The notes under the pieces are model-generated. The model searched no databases and was not told where the DNA came from. It saw only the letters and a list, made by a program, of their open reading frames with translations. From a virus, in UHGV virus genome UHGV-1351772: a DNA stretch of 64,000 nt; one strand, written 5' to 3'. A program made the translations under genes and the position numbers. Below are positions 3,764-61,753 of the stretch, piece by piece (the stretch's first letter is position 1; every line of letters starts with the position of its first letter).

Positions 3764-4264
3764 TCAAAACAGCTTAAGTGTTTGCGTTTGACCACCGCTG
3801 TACAGGTCGTAACGTTTCGCCACTTCCACCGCAGTGGGGGCGTCAACGCCAGCACCTAATGCACCCAGGGCATAGTGAGCACCTGAGCCTATCGCATACG
3901 GCGGCTCTACAAACACGTAACTGGCGTATTTGTTGTCTTTGCACTTCGAGGCGTCGATAACGCGTCCGTCTGTCAAAACAGCAAGTACGATAAAATCAAT
4001 CTGCTCGGGATACGTCGTTTCGAATCTAACTCCACCCCGTTCGATACCGCCGAAACGTTCAAGCGTGAGTTCTTGGCGCACGGATTGCAATGCGGCGACA
4101 TCACCTGCCAAACCGATCGCTTTCACGTCTTCACCCAAAAGCTTCCACGACGTACCCTCAGGCGGCGTGTGAATCTTACGGTATTGCGTGGCAGCACTAC
4201 GTTCTTCCACGGTGACTTGACCGTCGCAAGCTAACGTCTTTCCGTCGAAAACAATCGTGGTCAT
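3764..4264 (-). CDS. HslV/proteasome beta-type N-terminal-nucleophile (Thr) peptidase homolog (166 aa)
   Basis: The N-terminus MTTIVFDGKTLACDGQVT parallels E. coli HslV MTTIV..AGDGQAT. Further matches are GLAGD (GFAGG) and AIGSGAHYALGALGAG (AIGSGGPYAQAAA). Confidence 0.65.
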   Translation of the reverse strand: MTTIVFDGKTLACDGQVTVEERSAATQYRKIHTPPEGTSWKLLGEDVKAIGLAGDVAALQSVRQELTLERFGGIERGGVRFETTYPEQIDFIVLAVLTDGRVIDASKCKDNKYASYVFVEPPYAIGSGAHYALGALGAGVDAPTAVEVAKRYDLYSGGQTQTLKLF

Positions 4265-4626
4265 GACAGATTTCCTAACTCATTGCCGACCTCCTGGTCA
4301 GCAGCTACCATCGAATTCGTGCAACGCGTAACATGTTCACGAATCGCTCGAGCCAAACCTTCACGAACGGCTACCAGGAGACACTCTCGATAGCTCGGAT
4401 AATGCGCAATAGGGCTAGGGATGTGTTCCACGCAATAACCATCGTGAACTTCCACCACTACCGTGATGTAAATCTCGACGGGTTGGTAAATCCGCACGCT
4501 CTTGATCAAATCAAGTAACGCTGGCTCCGTGCATCCCCAGTCCTCCGGGGCTTTTAACAGCACTGCCAACTCATCGAGCCTGTACTGAACATCCAATTCC
4601 ACGTTAGTGGTGTTTTTGGAATCCAT
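4261..4626 (-). CDS. hypothetical protein (121 aa; start moved to the ATG with a GGAG RBS)
   Basis: GGAGATTTTAAT-ATG at 4626. There is an ATGA overlap with the HslV-like gene. Confidence 0.6.
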   Translation of the reverse strand: MDSKNTTNVELDVQYRLDELAVLLKAPEDWGCTEPALLDLIKSVRIYQPVEIYITVVVEVHDGYCVEHIPSPIAHYPSYRECLLVAVREGLARAIREHVTRCTNSMVAADQEVGNELGNLS

Positions 4627-5486
4627 ATTAAAATCTCCTGTCGTGGTCTGTGTCACACCAACAGGAAATCCTGTAAAAAAATAATTCAGCTGCGTACCGG
4701 CGTTTCTCAACGGGAGTACGCACCCCTCTCGTCTTTGCGAGCCGTCAAGCTAGAGGACATCACACTGCCAGCGCTACCTGGAGCAGGGTCATTCGACGCA
4801 ACGTCGTAATTCGCATTTTGGCCGCACCTCTGGGAGCGTATCCCACCGTCGGCTGCCCGCAGGTAAGTTCTACGGACCTTTCGCCAACGTCGCTCCCAGA
4901 GGCTGCCACGGTTCACTCGGATTTTCTCATGTGGTCCACGCGTCACTGATAGCGCGGGTTCCCCAACACTCGTAAGTCGGGGAACGGTACCGAGCACCTG
5001 AACTCTGGGGATTCCAAAAATCCCTCGGGGTAAGTACGATTCGCAAATCGATTTTCAAACCCCATAGTAAAACAAACTCCAGTGTTAGGCTGAACGTTTT
5101 GTTTTTCCCAGTACACGGCGAAATAAATTCCATGCACTCGAAAAAACAACCCCCAAACCAACACCCGGTCAGGGGGCTTCGAGCTCTGCTGAATCTTCGC
5201 AGACAGAAATCGTGTTTGAGCTGTGAGCAGTAAACTCCTGAACTCCGAAAAATCTTCGTGGTTGGATTTGTAAATCATCCCACGCAAATCCTCCGAACAT
5301 ACCATAGGGTTTTAACGTTCGAAAAAGGGGAATGGGTTTTACCCCCCTCGGTCAGGTGTTCAGGGTAGACCCCCTACCCGATCCCCCAGGTGGGGATTTT
5401 ACCCTGGTGAATTACCCCGGGTTCGATTTTCGGATTTTCTGGAAAATACCGCTCACCGATCCCTACCCCCTCAGGGGGGTCAGACC

Positions 5487-5496
5487 GAGATCAGAT
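5487..5496 (+). repeat. left copy of the 10-bp direct repeat GAGATCAGAT
   Basis: Identical to 5718..5727. The two copies bracket the CG-block/A+T-core/CG-block unit. Confidence 0.9.
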
Positions 5497-5518
5497 CTCA
5501 TAATAAGGATCGCGCGCG

Positions 5519-5680
5519 TTTTATATATATTTATATATAATATATATTATATATAATAATTATTATATTAATAAATATATTAATATATTTATTTAAATAA
5601 ATAATTAAATAATACCTAAAGGTATTATTATTTTGATCCTAAAGGAATAATATATTTATAAATAAATATATTATACTATA
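5519..5680. repeat. A/T low-complexity core, about 93 percent A+T, with 5519-5614 being 96 nt of pure A/T
   Basis: Direct reading. It contains a perfect 24-nt palindrome at 5570-5593 (AATAAATATATTAATATATTTATT) and a hairpin AATACC-TAAA-GGTATT. It is bounded by CGCGCGCG (5511-5518) and by alternating Pu/Py sequence at 5676-5703 that includes an 18-bp perfect palindrome (5683-5700). Confidence 0.95.
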
Positions 5681-5717
5681 CGCGCGTGCGTACGCACGCG
5701 TATAAGGAAGAGATCTT

Positions 5718-5727
5718 GAGATCAGAT
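5718..5727 (+). repeat. right copy of the 10-bp direct repeat GAGATCAGAT
   Basis: Identical to 5487..5496. Confidence 0.9.
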
Positions 5728-6331
5728 TTTTGAGAGAGTTAAAAATTTAAGATCGATCCGAGAGACTTAGTGTCTCTCGAAGAGTATTAAAAAATTTAAA
5801 AGATCAAAAAACCAAAGCTAGAGAACTACTCAACCTGAATCTTCAGTGTGTGAAGATTCAGTAAGTTGATCAATCCAGCTGATCCGCTAGTACGCGAAGC
5901 GTGAATGTTTTTTTGATCGTCGCGGCGGCCGGTCCGCCGACCCGAGGGTGGGGTGGAACTGGTCGAGGGGAATGCCCCTCAGGCGCTCTCAATCGCGCTG
6001 TAACGAGTTAAACGGGGTTCTGGTACCCAAGTGTACCCCTTGAGGAGATTTTTGCGTCAAAATGCGTTCTAGAGCGTTTTACGATGGGGTGGGTTTTCGA
6101 CCCACTCAGGGATAGGGGTTGGCGTGACAGCTCGAACGACAAAATCGTGGTTTCATGGCGTTGAGTGAAAATAAATTCAAAACCCACAACCAAAAACACC
6201 CTCAAATTCTTCGTAGGAAGCTCTCTGACGAGATAAACGTGGGTAAGGGGTACGAACGTACCGCCTGGAAAGAAAAATGCGTTAGAATCGCTCTCAGCGC
6301 GTTTTTGATTTTTGGGCAAAAAAATAAAACG

Positions 6332-6351
6332 GGGGAGACTTCGGTCTCCCC
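6332..6351 (-). terminator. rho-independent terminator after CDS 6362..7486
   Basis: GGGGAGAC-TTCG-GTCTCCCC is followed on the minus strand by GTTTTATTTTTTT. Confidence 0.85.
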
Positions 6352-6361
6352 AGAATATTTT

Positions 6362-7486
6362 TTACAGAGTCGTCAGTTCTTTTGACGGATAGTACAGTTT
6401 CACATCGACCAAACTGTAACCGGTGGCGTAGAACACCTGATTTCCGACCGAAGCAATAAACCCTTCAGGGTCGATAACGTCAACCGAGAAATCGGAATCG
6501 AATAGCCAGGTTTCTTGTTCCCCTTCCCGTTCGAAAACGGCAGCGTAACGCCCGTATTCTGGGCCTCGGCGGAAACGAAACAGCGTTAATCCTGTCTCAC
6601 GTTCTAAGCCATAAATCACCCCATTTTCTTCGTAGATTTCAGCGCGATTACAGCGTGTAACCGTCAACAACGCAGGCCGTTGTGTCGGGATTGTTTTAAA
6701 CGGTGAAGGCCCATCGTATGTCGTTGAAACCCAATCACCGAGACTGTCTAACGCCAGTGCTCGATACGCGATAGGTGACTTGTAGTTACACAACCTGTTG
6801 CCCTCGGTGTACATCGTGTATTCGATGCGTAACGTAGTACCGATGATGTCGTTCAAACTCAGTTTGTAGTGCGCTAACTGGGCTTGTATACGACAGGACA
6901 GAATTGTACACAGGAAAGTGTGACCCTCTGTAGAACGGCACACAACTCCGTAATCGGTCACTGCCAGTAACGTGGCATCTGTTTTACGGACGGGTTCCAG
7001 GCGAAACACCTCATTTTCAGTTTCTACGAGGAACTGCGAAACCGCTTGGTTTCTGGATTTAGCTTTAATCGTATCGAACACATCACCCGCTTTTACGATT
7101 AACGGTTCTACCACGTTTACCTGAAACGGCAGCGGTTTAGTTGGGTATTGTCCCAACGTTGTAATCGTTACTGAGTTGAGTTCTGGGTCCGATGCGTCAG
7201 GATCACCAGACAACCAATACGTTAGCCATTTCGACAACGTCTGGGGAATGACGCGCGTGGTGTAAAACAGAATTTCGCCATGTAAACCTGCCTCTGCCAA
7301 TTCGCGTGCAAGAAACGAGTTGACCGCGTCGTAGGTACCGTTGCGCAAGATGTCCATACCCCCGACACGAACCAAATCACAAATTACGCCGTGTGGAAGA
7401 ACCCACATTTTGACGTTTTGATTTCGGTCGATGGTACCTTCGCGCAGCATTCTGTGCCAAACGGGTTTACGTAAGTAATTTCTCAT
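6362..7486 (-). CDS. hypothetical protein (374 aa)
   Basis: ATG is preceded by AAAGGAG. No motif recognised. Confidence 0.7.
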   Translation of the reverse strand: MRNYLRKPVWHRMLREGTIDRNQNVKMWVLPHGVICDLVRVGGMDILRNGTYDAVNSFLARELAEAGLHGEILFYTTRVIPQTLSKWLTYWLSGDPDASDPELNSVTITTLGQYPTKPLPFQVNVVEPLIVKAGDVFDTIKAKSRNQAVSQFLVETENEVFRLEPVRKTDATLLAVTDYGVVCRSTEGHTFLCTILSCRIQAQLAHYKLSLNDIIGTTLRIEYTMYTEGNRLCNYKSPIAYRALALDSLGDWVSTTYDGPSPFKTIPTQRPALLTVTRCNRAEIYEENGVIYGLERETGLTLFRFRRGPEYGRYAAVFEREGEQETWLFDSDFSVDVIDPEGFIASVGNQVFYATGYSLVDVKLYYPSKELTTL

Positions 7487-7513
7487 TTTAAAACTCCTTT
7501 AGGTAGAATAAGA

Positions 7514-7538
7514 CTCTCACTAGGATAATATCTATCCG
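7514..7538 (-). promoter_or_regulatory. recurring promoter-like motif (minus-strand reading CGGATAGATATTATCCTAGTGAGAG)
   Basis: The core GATAATATCT(A/G)TC preceded by CAC-N3 is shared exactly with 52611..52635 and 61728..61753. It lies about 27 nt upstream of the ATG at 7486 in a divergent intergenic region. Confidence 0.5.
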
Positions 7539-7559
7539 TAATTATTTCGAGGTTCACTA

Positions 7560-8936
7560 ATGGCTGAACTGGTTTATGATTTTACATCCGGCTGCTACCA
7601 GAAAGCTGGAACTCGCGTCGCTCAGGAATCGTTCGGCCGTGATCCGTTCTTCGATGACGCGGAAACCTCATCGGGTTTGTACTACGACTACGGTTTTGGT
7701 GGCTACGTACCGATGGGATTCTCTGTTGCACACGAAGCCCGTCGCGACGACCGTTTACGTAAAGCGTTTGACGGCGTGTTTAATAAACTCGTGATTGACC
7801 GCAAATTGGCGTCTAAGCTGCGTCACTACGTAAGCGGAATACTCTCTCGTGAAGGTAACGTGGAGTGGTTAGGGTCGAACCTCCTCGGTGTTCACAGCAT
7901 CCGTTTTTTCGATTCGGACCGTAATCGTCTGTTCGATGAAGTTATCAACGTTGACGAAGATTATCTGTCGGAACTGATTAAAGAGTCCCAGTCGATTAAT
8001 ACCGATTGGCAGGTCGCGGGTGATACGTATAACCTGACCATCGTGTATTTGTTGCACCTGATGATTCCAAAGTTTGGCGACAAAGAAATCCTCGCTGCAG
8101 CCATCGACCTGGTGACGATACTCCAGTTTAAATTCTACTCGAGTATTTACTATCACTTCTTTCCGAAACCGGTTGATCTCCCTGCAGCAGAAGCGGCGTA
8201 TTCGATGCTCTCAATGAAATTCGATATTCGACGTTTGGGTAACTGGGGGCTGCATATGGCAGAACGTGCAACGTATTTCTGTTCGCCCGAATACCCGAAC
8301 TACGACGCCGTAAAACGTTTCGATACCCCCGACTTGGTACTGCGTTATATCACCGATTTAAATACACGTACGAAACAAACCGTGAAAGACTACTACGCGG
8401 TGCTCGATCGTGTACGTCGTGAGAATACTCGCGTGGTTAGTCAATCCGCGCGTATCGAGTTAGATGGCCAGTCTGTAATCCGTGATAAAGTCGGTGCACT
8501 AGAGATTGCAAAACAGAATCTGTTTGATGCGTCTTACGACATTAACAATCTGTACAAGGAAGAGTTGGCTCGTGTGGTGCTAGAAATGGTGCCCAAAGCA
8601 TCTCCCGCCGCGCTGAAAACGCTGCTGACTTATATCGCCAGTTTGCCGATTGGTAAGAAGCGTGATGAAATCAATAGCATTATGGAGGATACACTCTCAC
8701 ATGCTTTTGATGAGATTGTTACCAACCGTATCAACTTCAATGATGCGGTAACGGTGTTGCAGCGTATGCGTGCGTTGTATCAAGCATCGAAATCACCGAA
8801 CCCGTATGTGTTATCCCTACGGTCGAGAATTGAGAAATTGGCGGCGAAGGAAACACACATCCGACACGAATCCGCGTTAGCAGCTTTGCGTAATGCGTTG
8901 TTGTTATATTTCTTAATCCGGTCGTTACAGAAATAA
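7560..8936 (+). CDS. hypothetical protein (458 aa)
   Basis: ATG is preceded by GAGGT. It ends at a shared bidirectional terminator. No motif recognised. Confidence 0.7.
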   Translation: MAELVYDFTSGCYQKAGTRVAQESFGRDPFFDDAETSSGLYYDYGFGGYVPMGFSVAHEARRDDRLRKAFDGVFNKLVIDRKLASKLRHYVSGILSREGNVEWLGSNLLGVHSIRFFDSDRNRLFDEVINVDEDYLSELIKESQSINTDWQVAGDTYNLTIVYLLHLMIPKFGDKEILAAAIDLVTILQFKFYSSIYYHFFPKPVDLPAAEAAYSMLSMKFDIRRLGNWGLHMAERATYFCSPEYPNYDAVKRFDTPDLVLRYITDLNTRTKQTVKDYYAVLDRVRRENTRVVSQSARIELDGQSVIRDKVGALEIAKQNLFDASYDINNLYKEELARVVLEMVPKASPAALKTLLTYIASLPIGKKRDEINSIMEDTLSHAFDEIVTNRINFNDAVTVLQRMRALYQASKSPNPYVLSLRSRIEKLAAKETHIRHESALAALRNALLLYFLIRSLQK

Positions 8937-19461: not shown

Positions 19462-19477
19462 GCAAAAAAAATAAGTT

Positions 19478-19504
19478 TACCTACCTCCGTCAAGGAGGTA
19501 GGTA
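19478..19504. terminator. bidirectional terminator (TACCTACCTCC..GGAGGTAGGTA family)
   Basis: 11-bp perfect stem with loop GTCAA. A8 lies upstream and a T-run downstream. Confidence 0.9.
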
Positions 19505-19508
19505 GCTT

Positions 19509-23020: not shown

Positions 23021-23320
23021 TTAAGACTGCTTAATCGAAAGAATGAACCGAAACGGTTCAGTTAACAAGAGGTAAGTACGTGTAAAGTCGATTTCGGTAC
23101 CGGCTTGACGCACATCGCAATAAAATTTCGCGATATCTTGTTGTGAAATACCTGCGACAATGTTGTTGACTTTACGTTTGGTGTCAAAACGTTCAGCGAG
23201 TATCGAAGAAAGCACTTCCTTTCCAGCACGCTCTTGAACGGCATAGATTGTTAGTGCTTTCAATTCCTCAGGCGTTAAAGTTTGCAAAGTCGGAGGTATG
23301 GCAATGTTAACCACTTTCAT
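23021..23320 (-). CDS. hypothetical protein (99 aa)
   Basis: GAGGGAAGC-ATG. Confidence 0.55.
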   Translation of the reverse strand: MKVVNIAIPPTLQTLTPEELKALTIYAVQERAGKEVLSSILAERFDTKRKVNNIVAGISQQDIAKFYCDVRQAGTEIDFTRTYLLLTEPFRFILSIKQS

Positions 23321-23369
23321 GCTTCCCTCACAATCGACAAATTCGGGTTGCAGACCATGAACTGGGCGA

Positions 23370-24008
23370 TTATGGAGTTACAGTGTATTCGTTTAACGCA
23401 GCGTCAAAAATACCCCGAGAGATTTCCTTTGCATCAGAAATCGTAATCTGAGGTTCCCGTTCACTACACGCTACAGTAAGCTCGTAGAATGAACCACCCT
23501 TTAATAGCTGGTTAGCATTCAAACGAACGTCTTGGTTAAGCGCTACTGCTAACGTGTGAGTGTATCCGTTGTTTGCCAGTCGAACTAAACGCAGTTCACC
23601 GACCATACTGGGTTTAATTTCCCAGTTTGATAAGCGGTGAGGAACAATCCACACTTCATTAGCGCGGTAAGGCTCAGCCGACAGCTCTATCGAGGGCTGG
23701 ACAACATCACGTTCGTCGAACCCATACAGATAAAAACGTGGCACAGCGGTTGTGGTTTCCGCAGGTGTAAAGTAGCGACGGACACCACGCAGGCAGCGTT
23801 CTAAATCGACAGAGCAGCAAATACGGGGTACCGTTTTGTCTTCGTCTCTGTAAACGCTATAAGGAATCCGAGGTGTGAAAACCGAAATCTTTCGATCGCT
23901 GATATGCAACGGGGCGCTATCTAACTTTTTCAAAGAAACTTTCTTTGCGGTGCGCGGCAGTTGTTGCTCTAACCACTTCACCAACGAAGGTTCAATAGTA
24001 TCAGCCAT
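23370..24008 (-). CDS. hypothetical protein (212 aa)
   Basis: It abuts the protease gene with no gap. Confidence 0.65.
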   Translation of the reverse strand: MADTIEPSLVKWLEQQLPRTAKKVSLKKLDSAPLHISDRKISVFTPRIPYSVYRDEDKTVPRICCSVDLERCLRGVRRYFTPAETTTAVPRFYLYGFDERDVVQPSIELSAEPYRANEVWIVPHRLSNWEIKPSMVGELRLVRLANNGYTHTLAVALNQDVRLNANQLLKGGSFYELTVACSEREPQITISDAKEISRGIFDAALNEYTVTP

Positions 24009-43136: not shown

Positions 43137-43159
43137 AAAAGAAAAAAAATAAGAAAGTC

Positions 43160-43185
43160 TACCTACCTCCGAAAGGAGGTAGGTA
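43160..43185. terminator. bidirectional terminator (TACCTACCTCC..GGAGGTAGGTA family)
   Basis: 11-bp perfect stem with loop GAAA, flanked by an A-run and a T-run. Confidence 0.9.
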
Positions 43186-43192
43186 CTTTTAT

Positions 43193-52610: not shown

Positions 52611-52635
52611 GTCTCACGTAGATAATATCTGTCTG
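52611..52635 (-). promoter_or_regulatory. recurring promoter-like motif (minus-strand reading CAGACAGATATTATCTACGTGAGAC)
   Basis: Exact GATAATATCT core with CAC-N3, in a divergent intergenic region. Confidence 0.5.
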
Positions 52636-52663: not shown

Positions 52664-53128
52664 ATGGCTGACGAAGAAGTGAAATATCAGGCGTTTGATG
52701 GAGATGTGGACGACGAAGAATCGCTTCTCCGCCAAACGCAACAAGCCCGTGTACGGATTGTGAATCTCATCTTAGACGATCCACAAGCACACAAAGACTT
52801 GAAAACGGTAGACCGATTAGGGTCTTTGCTTAACGACGTTGACAAACAAATCATTTCCAAACGTCGCGTCGCTGCTGCACAGAAAAACAGCGAAGCTAAC
52901 CAAGATTTGGCGAATGCACTTAATAGCATCCTCATGCAACGTGGTAATATCAAAATACGTCGTCACGATGAGGAAGTCGAAGAAACCCAGGGCTACCAGC
53001 CCCCCGTTCCTGTTATTCCGGATGTTGAAGTAACAGAAGGGGAGCTGGCACCAGTAGGCGAACAAATCGATGTTAGGTCCATTATGACGGCGGCGTTTGC
53101 ACGTCCTGAGCAGGGCGAGCAAGACTAA
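52664..53128 (+). CDS. hypothetical acidic protein (154 aa)
   Basis: GAGGTAG RBS. It is a lone plus-strand gene in a minus-strand block. Its 3' end overlaps the convergent gene by 47 nt. Confidence 0.55.
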   Translation: MADEEVKYQAFDGDVDDEESLLRQTQQARVRIVNLILDDPQAHKDLKTVDRLGSLLNDVDKQIISKRRVAAAQKNSEANQDLANALNSILMQRGNIKIRRHDEEVEETQGYQPPVPVIPDVEVTEGELAPVGEQIDVRSIMTAAFARPEQGEQD

Positions 53129-61727: not shown

Positions 61728-61753
61728 TTACACCTGGATAATATCTATCTAAG
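61728..61753 (-). promoter_or_regulatory. recurring promoter-like motif (minus-strand reading CTTAGATAGATATTATCCAGGTGTAA)
   Basis: Exact GATAATATCTATC core. It overlaps the stop codon of the upstream gene. Confidence 0.5.

What the first reader, a model, noticed from the sequence alone, without database searches (positions are those of the whole stretch)
5327..6111. Same-orientation G-run / C-run-TCAGG motif repeated on both sides of the A/T core
GGGGAATGGGTTTTACCCCCCTCGGTCAGG (5327-5356), GGGGAATGCCCCTCAGG (5967-5983) and GGGGTGGGTTTTCGACCCACTCAGGG (6086-6111) share a GGGG(AA)TG...CCC(C)CTC..AGG frame in the same orientation. A related sequence, CCCTACCCCCTCAGGGGGG, lies at 5461-5479. Each can form a short hairpin. 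Repeated, oriented elements that flank an A/T core resemble iterons or binding sites for a phage protein.
Basis: seen in the sequence. Interest (0 to 1): 0.4.

Follow-up and report, generated by a model that had tools for sequence, protein, structure and literature searches.

The report
GC hairpins around phage AT core
The repeated G-run/C-run "TCAGG" sequences are real, but they are arms of short GC-rich hairpins that differ between related phages, not protein-binding iterons; they lie in a conserved, unannotated 1.7-kb non-coding locus of SPN3US-like jumbo phages that looks like a replication origin and borders an undescribed ~530-nt structured RNA.

Summary
The window comes from a phiKZ-like (SPN3US-clade) jumbo phage. 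All four quoted sequences are at the stated coordinates. A regex for their frame matches only these three places in 64 kb.

The iteron reading does not. In the 81%-identical relative, instances 2 and 3 are replaced by unrelated hairpins. At instance 4 only the stem is kept, and the loop holding "TCAG" differs in each lineage. The frame is absent from nine phages of three other genera that share the locus. TCAGG lies in a loop in some copies and in a 3' tail in others. Instance 1 corresponds to a hairpin plus T-run on the minus strand, a strong terminator-like site in phiEaH2.

What is conserved is the locus, 4627-6361:
- an extreme A/T core;
- alternating-CG blocks on both sides;
- the densest GATC cluster in the window;
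- a series of palindromic hairpins at fixed positions.

In phiEaH2 the locus is unique in the genome and also carries locus-specific direct repeats.

My best reading is a replication-origin-like control region. This is inferred, and a packaging site or a transcription hub remain possible. Positions 4676-5211 (minus strand) encode a strongly covarying structured RNA with no Rfam match.

The parts
4627..6361 (.). The whole non-coding locus, the largest ORF-free gap in the window. It lies between the probable ATG of the left gene (CAT at 4624-4626, RBS AGGAGA) and the stop of ORF 6362-7486(-).
   Evidence: Frame-breaking indels between the window and L011 rule out the small ORFs. The locus is syntenic and unannotated in all relatives.
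4676..5211 (-). Conserved structured RNA element of about 530 nt. It has long-range helices, GNRA loops and an invariant AUCUUGRCGGCUCG..AAGACGAGAGGGG block. It contains the extra 'CCCGGTCAGGG' copy at 5164 as the arm and loop of a covarying hairpin (5148-5175).
   Evidence: 84 pairs; 36 have compensatory double changes; 94.8% of cells are paired against 40-44% in slid controls. I count about 12% G.U cells from the table, so the structure reads on the minus strand. There is no Rfam family in the window or in 9 relatives.
5322..5356 (-). Instance 1. On the minus strand it reads GAGGGGGGTAAAACCCATTCCCC followed by TTTTT, a weak terminator-like hairpin plus T-run.
   Evidence: The T-run is conserved in all 11 aligned relatives. 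phiEaH2 has CCCTGGGGTAAAACCTCGGGG followed by a T-rich tail (CGATTTTTTT) and Sal1252 has CCGTCCGGGGACGG+ATTTTTATT, both on the same strand.
5363..5397 (.). Two further GC hairpins, GGGTAG/CTACCC and ATCCCC/GGGGAT.
5465..5480 (.). Instance 4: the perfect palindrome ACCCCC-TCAG-GGGGGT. The stem is conserved and the loop differs in each lineage.
5380..5918 (.). GATC cluster, 14 sites in 536 nt.
   Evidence: about 1.5 expected, Poisson P about 1e-9, and the densest 600-nt window of the 64 kb. The cluster is conserved around the core in most relatives and is the genome-wide maximum in phiEaH2.
5487..5518 (+). Left border block, GAGATCAGATCTC-ATAATAAGGATC-GCGCGCG. It is nearly invariant across genera.
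5519..5675 (.). A/T core. It has a pure A/T run of 96 nt (5519-5614) plus one of 30 nt. GC over 150 nt is 6%, against 29% for the next lowest window.
5608..5629 (.). Central palindrome in the core, AATAATACC-TAAA-GGTATTATT. Relatives have ATATCTAAAGATAT or ATCCCTACGGGAT at the same place.
5677..5704 (.). A 28-nt perfect alternating pyrimidine/purine, CG-rich near-palindrome, the longest such tract in the window. Together with (CG)n at 5511-5518 it brackets the core.
5701..5725 (+). Right border block, TATAAGGAAGAGATCTTGAGATCAG. Its ATAAGGA box has the same orientation as the one at the left border.
5759..5779 (.). Hairpin H2, CGAGAGAC-TTAGT-GTCTCTCG. The stem is invariant in the lineage, and the loop is inverted in L009 (ACTAA).
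5835..5861 (.). Hairpin H4, with an 11-bp stem and loop GTGTG. Other genera have unrelated stems at the same position.
   Evidence: For example, pair 182/199 is UA in 7 sequences and CG in 7.
5891..5915 (+). Hairpin H5, containing GCGAAGC (a GAA triloop), followed by T7 and then the conserved GATCGTCGCGGCGG.
   Evidence: Stems covary: CGC/GCG, GCAC/GTGC, CCGC/GCGG, GCGC/GCGC.
5965..5983 (.). Instance 2: the perfect 6-bp hairpin GAGGGG-AATG-CCCCTC plus AGG. Only its 5' half matches a semi-conserved cGGGgATGG element. The hairpin itself is specific to the window/L009/L010 lineage.
6064..6080 (+). GCGTTCTAGAGCGTTTT, a conserved quasi-palindrome plus T-run just before instance 3.
6086..6111 (+). 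Instance 3: hairpin GGTGGGT-TTTCG-ACCCACT. G.T wobbles in the window and in L010 are valid only on the + strand. It occupies the position where relatives carry the TGGTTAAAAAGTGTACA repeat.
6332..6351 (.). Bidirectional intrinsic terminator of ORF 6362-7486. Its loop, TTCG, is inverted relative to L009, L010 and most other relatives (CGAA).

Best explanation
The G-run/C-run-TCAGG strings are not one recognition sequence. They are the arms, and sometimes the loops or tails, of short GC-rich stem-loops scattered through a conserved 1.7-kb non-coding locus (4627-6361) of SPN3US-like nucleus-forming jumbo phages. In phiEaH2, the one complete genome checked, the locus is unique in the genome.

Shown:
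- Selection keeps the hairpin and its position, not the sequence.
- Instance 1 is the weakened homologue of a minus-strand hairpin plus T-run, which is terminator-like.
- Instances 2 and 4 are perfect palindromes.
- Instance 3 replaces a repeat element found in relatives.
- The copy at 5164 is a helix of a large structured RNA.

Inferred: the locus itself is most likely the phage's replication-origin control region. The 96-nt pure A/T run would act as the DNA-unwinding element. It is clamped on both sides by alternating-CG tracts prone to Z-DNA or cruciform formation. It is surrounded by a Dam-site (GATC) cluster that could couple firing to methylation by a phage Dam. It is flanked by arrays of palindromic hairpins. 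These could insulate the core from read-through transcription, or could fold in unwound single strands. Relatives add locus-specific 22-nt tandem direct repeats, which would be the real iteron candidates.
For: Hairpin, not sequence:
- Stems are kept while loops vary.
- Hairpins H2, H4 and H5 and the terminator sit at fixed positions but have unrelated stems across four clades.
- The frame is absent outside the window lineage.
- TCAGG sits in different structural contexts in different copies.
- Right-flank stems are almost purely Watson-Crick, and their loops flip between close relatives. This points to palindromes acting at the DNA level or on both strands.
- Terminator-like sites are enriched in the gap: 6 against 2.2 expected in the window, 10 against 2.1 in Sal1252 and 7 against 2.2 in phiEaH2.

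Origin-like locus:
- It holds the lowest-GC segment of the window, 6% against 29% for the next lowest. In phiEaH2 it holds the lowest-GC segment of the whole genome.
- It holds the densest GATC cluster in both, although GATC is under-represented genome-wide.
- phiEaH2 encodes a Dam with a DPPY motif.
- Conserved CG clamps and border boxes bracket the core.
- The TGGTTAAAAAGTGTACA repeats occur only here in 243 kb.
- It is the largest non-coding gap in the window.
- GC skew changes sign at the core.
Against: - No experiment or replication-profile data exist for any of these phages.
- Cumulative GC skew of phiEaH2 is monotonic and uninformative.
- There are no DnaA or IHF boxes. That is expected if host factors are excluded, but it removes a positive marker.
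- The window lineage lacks the TGGTTAAAAA repeats.
- The locus sits about 3 kb from the large terminase gene, and GATC-flanked A/T regions also describe the P1 pac site.
- The same hairpin plus T-run modules would be expected if the region were simply a set of small transcription units.
- Huxley has only 83 nt where the window has about 340 nt (5177-5512). The part holding instances 1 and 4 is therefore dispensable in that phage.
Confidence: 0.5

Rival explanations
1. The motifs are elements of non-coding transcripts: intrinsic terminators and stabilising or processing hairpins of small RNAs made from A/T-rich phage promoters in or beside the core. On this view the locus is a transcription hub rather than an origin.
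For: The adjoining 4676-5211 element is clearly an RNA. Hairpin plus T-run modules are enriched, mostly on the strand of the flanking genes. Early promoters of phiKZ-like phages are about 10-nt A/T-rich motifs, and late promoters use TATG (PMC7598289). Instance 3 tolerates G.T only on the + strand. GNRA-type loops occur in several right-flank hairpins.
Against: Outside the left RNA there is no consensus structure and only local hairpins covary. Right-flank stems carry about 1% G.U, against about 12% in the real RNA. Their loops flip orientation between close relatives, which strand-specific RNA function would not favour. The 5318-5500 segment does not fold better than shuffles (z -1.7 and -1.0). 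A 96-nt pure A/T run and a GATC cluster are not needed for promoters.
Confidence: 0.25
2. The locus is the packaging-initiation (pac) site of a headful-packaging phage. The GC hairpins and GATC sites would be part of a terminase recognition region regulated by methylation, as at the P1 pac site.
For: The cis-element is unique in the phiEaH2 genome and lies about 3 kb from the large terminase gene in every relative. GATC sites lie on both sides of a central region. One relative encodes its own Dam. These phages are described as headful packagers (PMC6256631).
Against: The GATC sites share no common hexamer such as P1's TGATCA/G. No IHF-like site is present. Records that start here do so by convention, not because ends were mapped. 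An extreme unwinding-prone A/T run with CG clamps is not a known pac feature. For two other giant phages PhageTerm found no obvious termini (PMC12390700); the passage read does not state how they are related to this clade.
Confidence: 0.15
3. One reading: same-orientation iterons bound by a phage initiator or other DNA-binding protein.
For: The motif is confined to the island and all copies are on the + strand. It lies on both sides of an A/T core.
Against: The motif is not conserved beyond the immediate lineage. Spacing is irregular (about 130, 500 and 120 nt). The copies need two or three indels to align, and TCAGG sits in different structural contexts. Instance 1 has a better explanation as a terminator homologue. 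Relatives have a different, truly repeated element at the position of instance 3.
Confidence: 0.07
4. The resemblance between the copies is a by-product of composition. Any set of G-run/C-run hairpins in a G/C-patchy region will share GGGG, CCCC and short words by chance.
For: G4..C4 and C4..G4 hairpin-type patterns are enriched about tenfold in the gap as a class. GGGGAATG alone is not significant. The frame was defined after the fact.
Against: CCCNNTCAGGG gives 5 hits against 0.18 expected, 3 of them in 1.7 kb. TCAGG enrichment has P about 0.003 against dinucleotide shuffles of the gap itself.
Confidence: 0.03

Closest known systems
Dam-regulated origins with an A/T-rich unwinding element (E. 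coli oriC; phage P1 oriR)
   Same: An A/T-rich core with an unusually dense GATC cluster, in a phage group where a relative encodes a Dam methylase. The locus is unique in the phiEaH2 genome.
   Different: There are no DnaA boxes and no 13-mer or 9-mer organisation. The core is far longer and purer (96 nt A/T) and is clamped by alternating-CG tracts. Function is untested.
Transcription-primed phage origins (T4 oriF/oriG; T7 primary origin)
   Same: The phage carries its own RNA polymerases. Promoter-like A/T-rich boxes (CATAATAAGGATC, TATAAGGAAGAGATC) lie next to an unwinding-prone tract, which would suit R-loop priming.
   Different: No transcription start has been mapped. The border boxes are not the promoter-like motif seen elsewhere in the window (CTCACnTAGATAATATCT). 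This comparison rests on my own knowledge of T4 and T7 and was not tested here.
Iteron-type origins (plasmid oriV, lambda ori)
   Same: In relatives, 2-3 same-orientation copies of TGGTTAAAAAGTGTACA, often as a 22-nt tandem, occur only at this locus beside the A/T core.
   Different: The window lineage lacks them. No initiator gene has been identified.
P1 pac site
   Same: GATC sites on both sides of a central region, a phage-encoded Dam in a relative, proximity to the terminase gene and headful packaging.
   Different: There is no repeated TGATCA/G hexamer, no IHF site and no mapped cleavage.
Single-strand initiation hairpins and the d(GCGAAGC) mini-hairpin of G4/phiX174-type origins; RSF1010 ssiA/ssiB
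   Same: Stable GC hairpins flank an A/T-rich region, including a literal GCGAAGC at 5893-5899 whose stem covaries across genera.
   Different: The link to priming is only a resemblance recalled from the literature. Most stems are strand-symmetric, and no primase recognition was tested.
Large ornate bacterial and phage RNAs (ROOL, GOLLD, OLE), for the adjoining RNA
   Same: It is 500 nt or longer, has multi-helix covarying structure, is phage-encoded and lies within about 1 kb of a tRNA gene.
   Different: It matches no Rfam model of these or any other family. So far it is found only in SPN3US-like jumbo phages.

Membership tests
Iterons (origin-binding direct repeats) | Several copies of one sequence in the same orientation, at regular spacing phased with the DNA helix | tested here: not met
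   The copies lie at 5327, 5461, 5967 and 6086 with irregular spacing and need indels to align.
Iterons (origin-binding direct repeats) | Sequence conserved in related replicons that share the locus | tested here: not met
   The frame is absent in 9 phages of 3 genera, and instances 2 and 3 are lost in the 81%-identical lineage.
Iterons (origin-binding direct repeats) | Bound by a cognate initiator protein | not testable with these tools
   Needs EMSA, footprinting or ChIP.
Replication origin with DNA-unwinding element | An A/T-rich, easily melted segment that is exceptional for the genome | tested here: met
   A 96-nt pure A/T run; 6% GC against 29% for the next lowest window; the genome-wide minimum in phiEaH2.
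Replication origin with DNA-unwinding element | A single conserved locus per genome, with locus-specific repeats | tested here: met
   Met for phiEaH2: the GATC maximum, the GC minimum and the TGGTTAAAA repeats all fall only here. The window itself is only 64 kb of a genome of about 225 kb.
Replication origin with DNA-unwinding element | Strand-composition switch at the site | tested here: inconclusive
   Local GC skew changes sign at the core, but the genome-wide cumulative skew of phiEaH2 follows gene orientation.
Replication origin with DNA-unwinding element | Replication actually initiates there | not testable with these tools
   Needs marker-frequency sequencing or 2D gels.
oriC/DnaA-type origin | DnaA boxes (TTATCCACA) | tested here: not met
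   No match with up to 1 mismatch in the gap.
P1-type pac site | Repeated GATC-containing hexamers (TGATCA/G) flanking the cut region, plus an IHF site | tested here: not met
   GATC contexts are heterogeneous and no IHF-like site is present.
Intrinsic (rho-independent) terminator, for instance 1 | A GC-rich hairpin immediately followed by a T-run on the transcribed strand | tested here: inconclusive
   On the minus strand a hairpin (4-bp outer stem, 13-nt loop) is followed by TTTTT. It was not called by the scanner in the window, but homologous positions are called in phiEaH2 and Sal1252, and the T-run is conserved.
Structured RNA gene (4676-5211, minus strand) | Base pairs maintained by compensatory changes well above controls, and specific to one strand | tested here: met
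   36 of 84 pairs have double changes against 5-13 in slid controls; 94.8% of cells are paired against about 42%; I count about 12% G.U cells.
Any Rfam 15 family | A covariance-model hit at the gathering score | tested here: not met
   Only tRNA in the window and in 9 relatives. Nothing significant at E up to 10 in 4700-6500.

The most novel reading that the evidence does not exclude
The locus at 4627-6361 is the so far unidentified origin of DNA replication of SPN3US-clade nucleus-forming jumbo phages. On this reading an extreme A/T unwinding element with CG clamps is governed by phage Dam methylation and lineage-specific repeats or hairpins. It is physically coupled to a new class of large (about 530 nt) structured phage RNA, whose function could be linked to replication or to tRNA and translation control.
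Probability: 0.3. Interest if true: 0.75.

Novelty: new member of a known kind. Interest (0 to 1): 0.45.

Why it matters
The flagged motif is ordinary: lineage-specific GC hairpins. Its surroundings are not. None of my literature searches found a mapped or predicted replication origin for phiKZ/SPN3US-type nucleus-forming phages. Every GenBank relative leaves this 1.1-1.8-kb locus unannotated, and several records are simply cut open in it. A cis-element with origin hallmarks that is conserved across four clades, and unique in the one genome checked, gives a concrete place to test where and how replication starts inside the phage nucleus. The adjoining RNA has strong covariation and no Rfam family. 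It adds a candidate new large structured RNA from phages.

Tried and rejected
- Megablast of 4000-8000 against phages found nothing. Relatives had to be found through a flanking protein.
- The metagenome scan with TAATAAGGATCNCGCG was too unspecific: 120 or more mostly chance hits and only one real locus, L135.
- Comparing whole-segment MFE between + and - strands gave inconsistent signs across relatives and was dropped as a strand test.
- A consensus structure for 5177-5512 across genera failed because the region is not alignable. Only 4 pairs were predicted.
- Cumulative GC skew of the complete phiEaH2 genome was uninformative.
- Searches for DnaA and IHF sites were negative.
- I considered GGTTAAAAANNNNNCA and AAAATAAATTC as window-wide promoter motifs. 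The first is not enriched in the window. The second is weakly enriched.
- I considered that ORFs 4707-4997, 4943-5305 and 6008-6319 might be genes. I rejected this because of frame-breaking indels between close relatives.
- Literature searches for an SPN3US origin, transcriptome, termini or ncRNA found nothing relevant.
- No Dam homologue lies within this 64-kb window.
Full report
**Context.** Pfam and PHROG hits identify the window as a phiKZ-like (Chimalliviridae) jumbo phage: phiKZ gp28 and gp29 homologues, tail sheath, large terminase and DUF7193. The nearest GenBank relatives are Erwinia phages phiEaH2, Stratton and Asesino (Erskinevirus), at about 62% amino-acid identity on ORF 6362-7486. 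Next comes the Salmonella SPN3US group at about 55%. IMG/VR and one metagenome contig supply closer relatives. Identity over the gap is 94% for L009 and 81% for L011. L135 is 86% identical over the left half. L010 (94%) and L012/L018 (72%) cover only the right part.

The finding lies in the largest ORF-free stretch of the window, 4627-6361. The small ORFs listed there are broken by indels between close relatives. The left gene most likely starts at the ATG at 4626, which has an AGGAGA ribosome-binding site.

All three are in the gap and on the + strand, and none appears in shuffles. That regex is post hoc.
- CCCNNTCAGGG gives 5 hits against 0.18 expected, three of them in the gap.
- TCAGG is enriched about fourfold on the + strand of the gap (P about 0.003).
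- GGGGAATG alone is not significant.
- Instances 2, 3 and 4 fold into good 6-7-bp hairpins. Instance 1 does not fold better than shuffles.

One caveat applies: TCAGG is loop or arm in two copies and an unpaired 3' tail in two others.

**Conservation test.**
- In the 81% lineage (L011/L018), instance 2 becomes CGGCAAGGGGTCGTACG. Instance 3 becomes a different 8-bp hairpin, ATCCGGTT..AACCGGAT.
- At instance 4 the CCCCC/GGGGG stem is invariant, but the loop is TCA(G), TCACC or TGGAT in three lineages.
- The GGG..CCC..TCAGG frame and the TCAGG enrichment are absent from all nine phages of Erskinevirus, Seoulvirus and Machinavirus, although these share the locus.

What is maintained is pairing and position, not sequence. 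That argues against sequence-specific iterons.

**What each copy is.**
- Instance 1, read on the minus strand, is GAGGGGGGTAAAACCCATTCCCC followed by TTTTT. The T-run is conserved in all aligned relatives. phiEaH2 has CCCTGGGGTAAAACCTCGGGG followed by a T-rich tail (CGATTTTTTT) at the homologous place, and Sal1252 has CCGTCCGGGGACGG+ATTTTTATT. The scanner calls both as terminator-like.
- The copy at 5164 is one helix of the structured RNA described below (columns 53-79).
- Instance 2 is a lineage-specific perfect palindrome. Its 5' half overlaps a semi-conserved cGGGgATGG element.
- Instance 3 follows a conserved GCGTTCTAGAGCGTTTT module. It occupies the place where relatives carry TGGTTAAAAAGTGTACA.

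**The locus.** Across four clades the same architecture recurs:
1. GAGATC..GATCTCnTAATAAGGATC, then (CG)n;
2. an A/T core with a central palindrome (ACC-TAAA-GGT, ATC-TAAA-GAT or TCCC-TAC-GGGA);
3. an alternating-CG block, then TATAAgGAAAG;
4. a series of hairpins separated by conserved A/T-rich spacers;
5. GATCGTCGCGGCGG;
6. ACCCAAGTGTAC;
7. an A-run, then the terminator of the upstream gene.

In the window the core contains a pure A/T run of 96 nt. GC over 150 nt is 6%, against 29% for the next lowest window. The 28-nt alternating purine/pyrimidine tract at 5677-5704 is the longest in the window. Fourteen GATC sites fall in 536 nt against about 1.5 expected (P about 1e-9), the densest cluster in 64 kb.

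I assembled the complete phiEaH2 genome from five fetches. There the locus holds the lowest-GC 150-nt window genome-wide and the densest GATC window. It also holds all three genomic copies of GGTTAAAA[AT][GTA]T[GA], all in one orientation. GATC is otherwise under-represented (observed/expected 0.37), and the phage encodes a Dam with a DPPY motif. In Erskinevirus and Machinavirus two of the repeats form a 22-nt tandem. The window lineage has lost them; L011 keeps one.

**RNA or DNA?** Left of the finding, 4676-5211 on the minus strand is a bona fide structured RNA.
- RNAalifold on 13 sequences predicts 84 pairs, 36 with compensatory double changes.
- 94.8% of cells are paired against 40-44% when partners are slid.
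- The covariation score is 0.394 against 0.08-0.10, and no shuffle out of 500 reaches it.
- I count about 12% of cells as G.U in the table. This fixes the strand.
- No Rfam 15 family matches in the window or in nine relatives.

The segment holding instances 1 and 4 (5212-5500) behaves differently. It cannot be aligned between genera and yields no consensus structure. It does not fold better than shuffles. It shrinks to 83 nt in Huxley.

In the right flank only local hairpins covary. Their stems are almost purely Watson-Crick. Their loops are found in both orientations among close relatives: TTCG and CGAA at 6340, TTAGT and ACTAA at H2, GAAA and TTTC, and CGGA and TCCG. This is the behaviour of DNA palindromes, or of elements used on both strands, rather than of a strand-specific RNA fold. 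Hairpin plus T-run sites are about three- to fivefold enriched in the gaps.

**Interpretation.**
- Shown: the motif copies are hairpin components, and the locus is a conserved cis-element that is unique in the phiEaH2 genome.
- Inferred: an extreme unwinding-prone core, CG clamps, a Dam-site cluster, locus-specific direct repeats in relatives and hairpin arrays together fit a replication-origin control region best.
- A P1-like pac site remains possible. The evidence for it is the proximity to terL, the GATC sites and headful packaging. Against it, there is no common hexamer and no IHF site.
- A hub of small transcription units also remains possible.
- The placement of bp 1 of many GenBank records in this locus is a convention (PMC6256631).
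- Three metagenomic assemblies break inside the A/T core. This is most simply a sequencing or assembly effect.
- No paper in the searchable library describes an origin, termini, a transcriptome or an ncRNA for this phage group.

**Verdict.** The iteron reading of this motif is not supported, although the idea of an origin-like island is plausible. The motif itself is of low interest. The locus and the neighbouring RNA are of moderate to high interest and can be tested experimentally.

Noticed in passing
window 4676-5211 (minus strand); L001 8196-8729, L002 7815-8380 and others: A structured RNA element of about 530 nt, conserved in all SPN3US-like phages examined. 36 of 84 pairs show compensatory changes. 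It has GNRA loops and an invariant CGGCTCGnnAAGACGAGAGGGG block. It has no Rfam match and lies about 900 nt from tRNA-Trp. A pattern scan of IMG/VR found it only in jumbo-phage contigs of this clade (15 loci).
   Followed up: yes
L001 (phiEaH2) record 164653-164731; also L002-L008, L015, L017 right flank: The direct repeat cTGGTTAAAAAgTGTACA/..TGAGCA. There are 2-3 copies per phage, all in the same orientation, often as a 22-nt tandem. It occurs only at this locus in the whole 243-kb phiEaH2 genome. This is a better iteron candidate than the flagged motif. It is lost in the window lineage.
   Followed up: partly
window 6340-6343 vs L009; 5767-5771 vs L009; L003 vs L004; L005 vs L006: Hairpin loops are exact reverse complements between close relatives (TTCG/CGAA, TTAGT/ACTAA, GAAA/TTTC, CGGA/TCCG). 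These are repeated 'flip-flop' inversions of palindrome loops.
   Followed up: partly
L010, L012/L018, L135, L145; GenBank records of SPN3US, EC001, Lh1B, JN03 and others: Three independent metagenomic contigs end inside the A/T core; one 220.8-kb contig has both ends there. Many GenBank records are linearised in or next to the core. This is probably an assembly or coverage failure in the pure A/T run plus a bp-1 convention, but physical ends were not excluded.
   Followed up: partly
window 19465-19505, 43143-43186, 2072-2082: Two nearly identical palindromic terminators, A-run + TACCTACCTCC-loop-GGAGGTAGGTA + T-run, at two convergent gene junctions, plus a third half-copy at 2072.
   Followed up: no
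window 7516-7533, 52613-52630, 61729-61746 (+ strand): The motif CTCACnTAGATAATATCT has 3 hits against 0.09 expected. Two lie about 30-45 nt upstream of the minority + strand genes 7560-8936 and 52664-53128. It is a candidate phage promoter or operator.
   Followed up: partly
window 4624-4710: ORF 4261-4710 (TTG start) probably starts at the ATG at 4626, preceded by AGGAGA. The 4700-4752 segment, 88-91% identical to Salmonella phages, belongs to the 3' end of the RNA element and not to the gene.
   Followed up: partly
window 6059-6080 and 6274-6305; 6047-6062 and 6307-6322: The module AAAATGCGTT..(TC)TAGA..GCG(C)TTTT and the flanking GATTTTTGnG(T)CAAAA each occur twice in the right flank, and both are conserved in L011.
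   Followed up: no
window 6168-6215; L002-L004 right flank: AAAATAAATTC..(about 25 nt)..CCCTCAAATTC is conserved without hairpin potential between the window lineage and Seoulvirus. It lies in a roughly 200-nt insert that Erskinevirus and Machinavirus lack.
   Followed up: no
L139 (phiEaH2) 23062-23880: phiEaH2 encodes a Dam-type adenine methylase (DPPY motif), while GATC is strongly under-represented in its genome (observed/expected 0.37). No homologue lies within this 64-kb window.
   Followed up: partly
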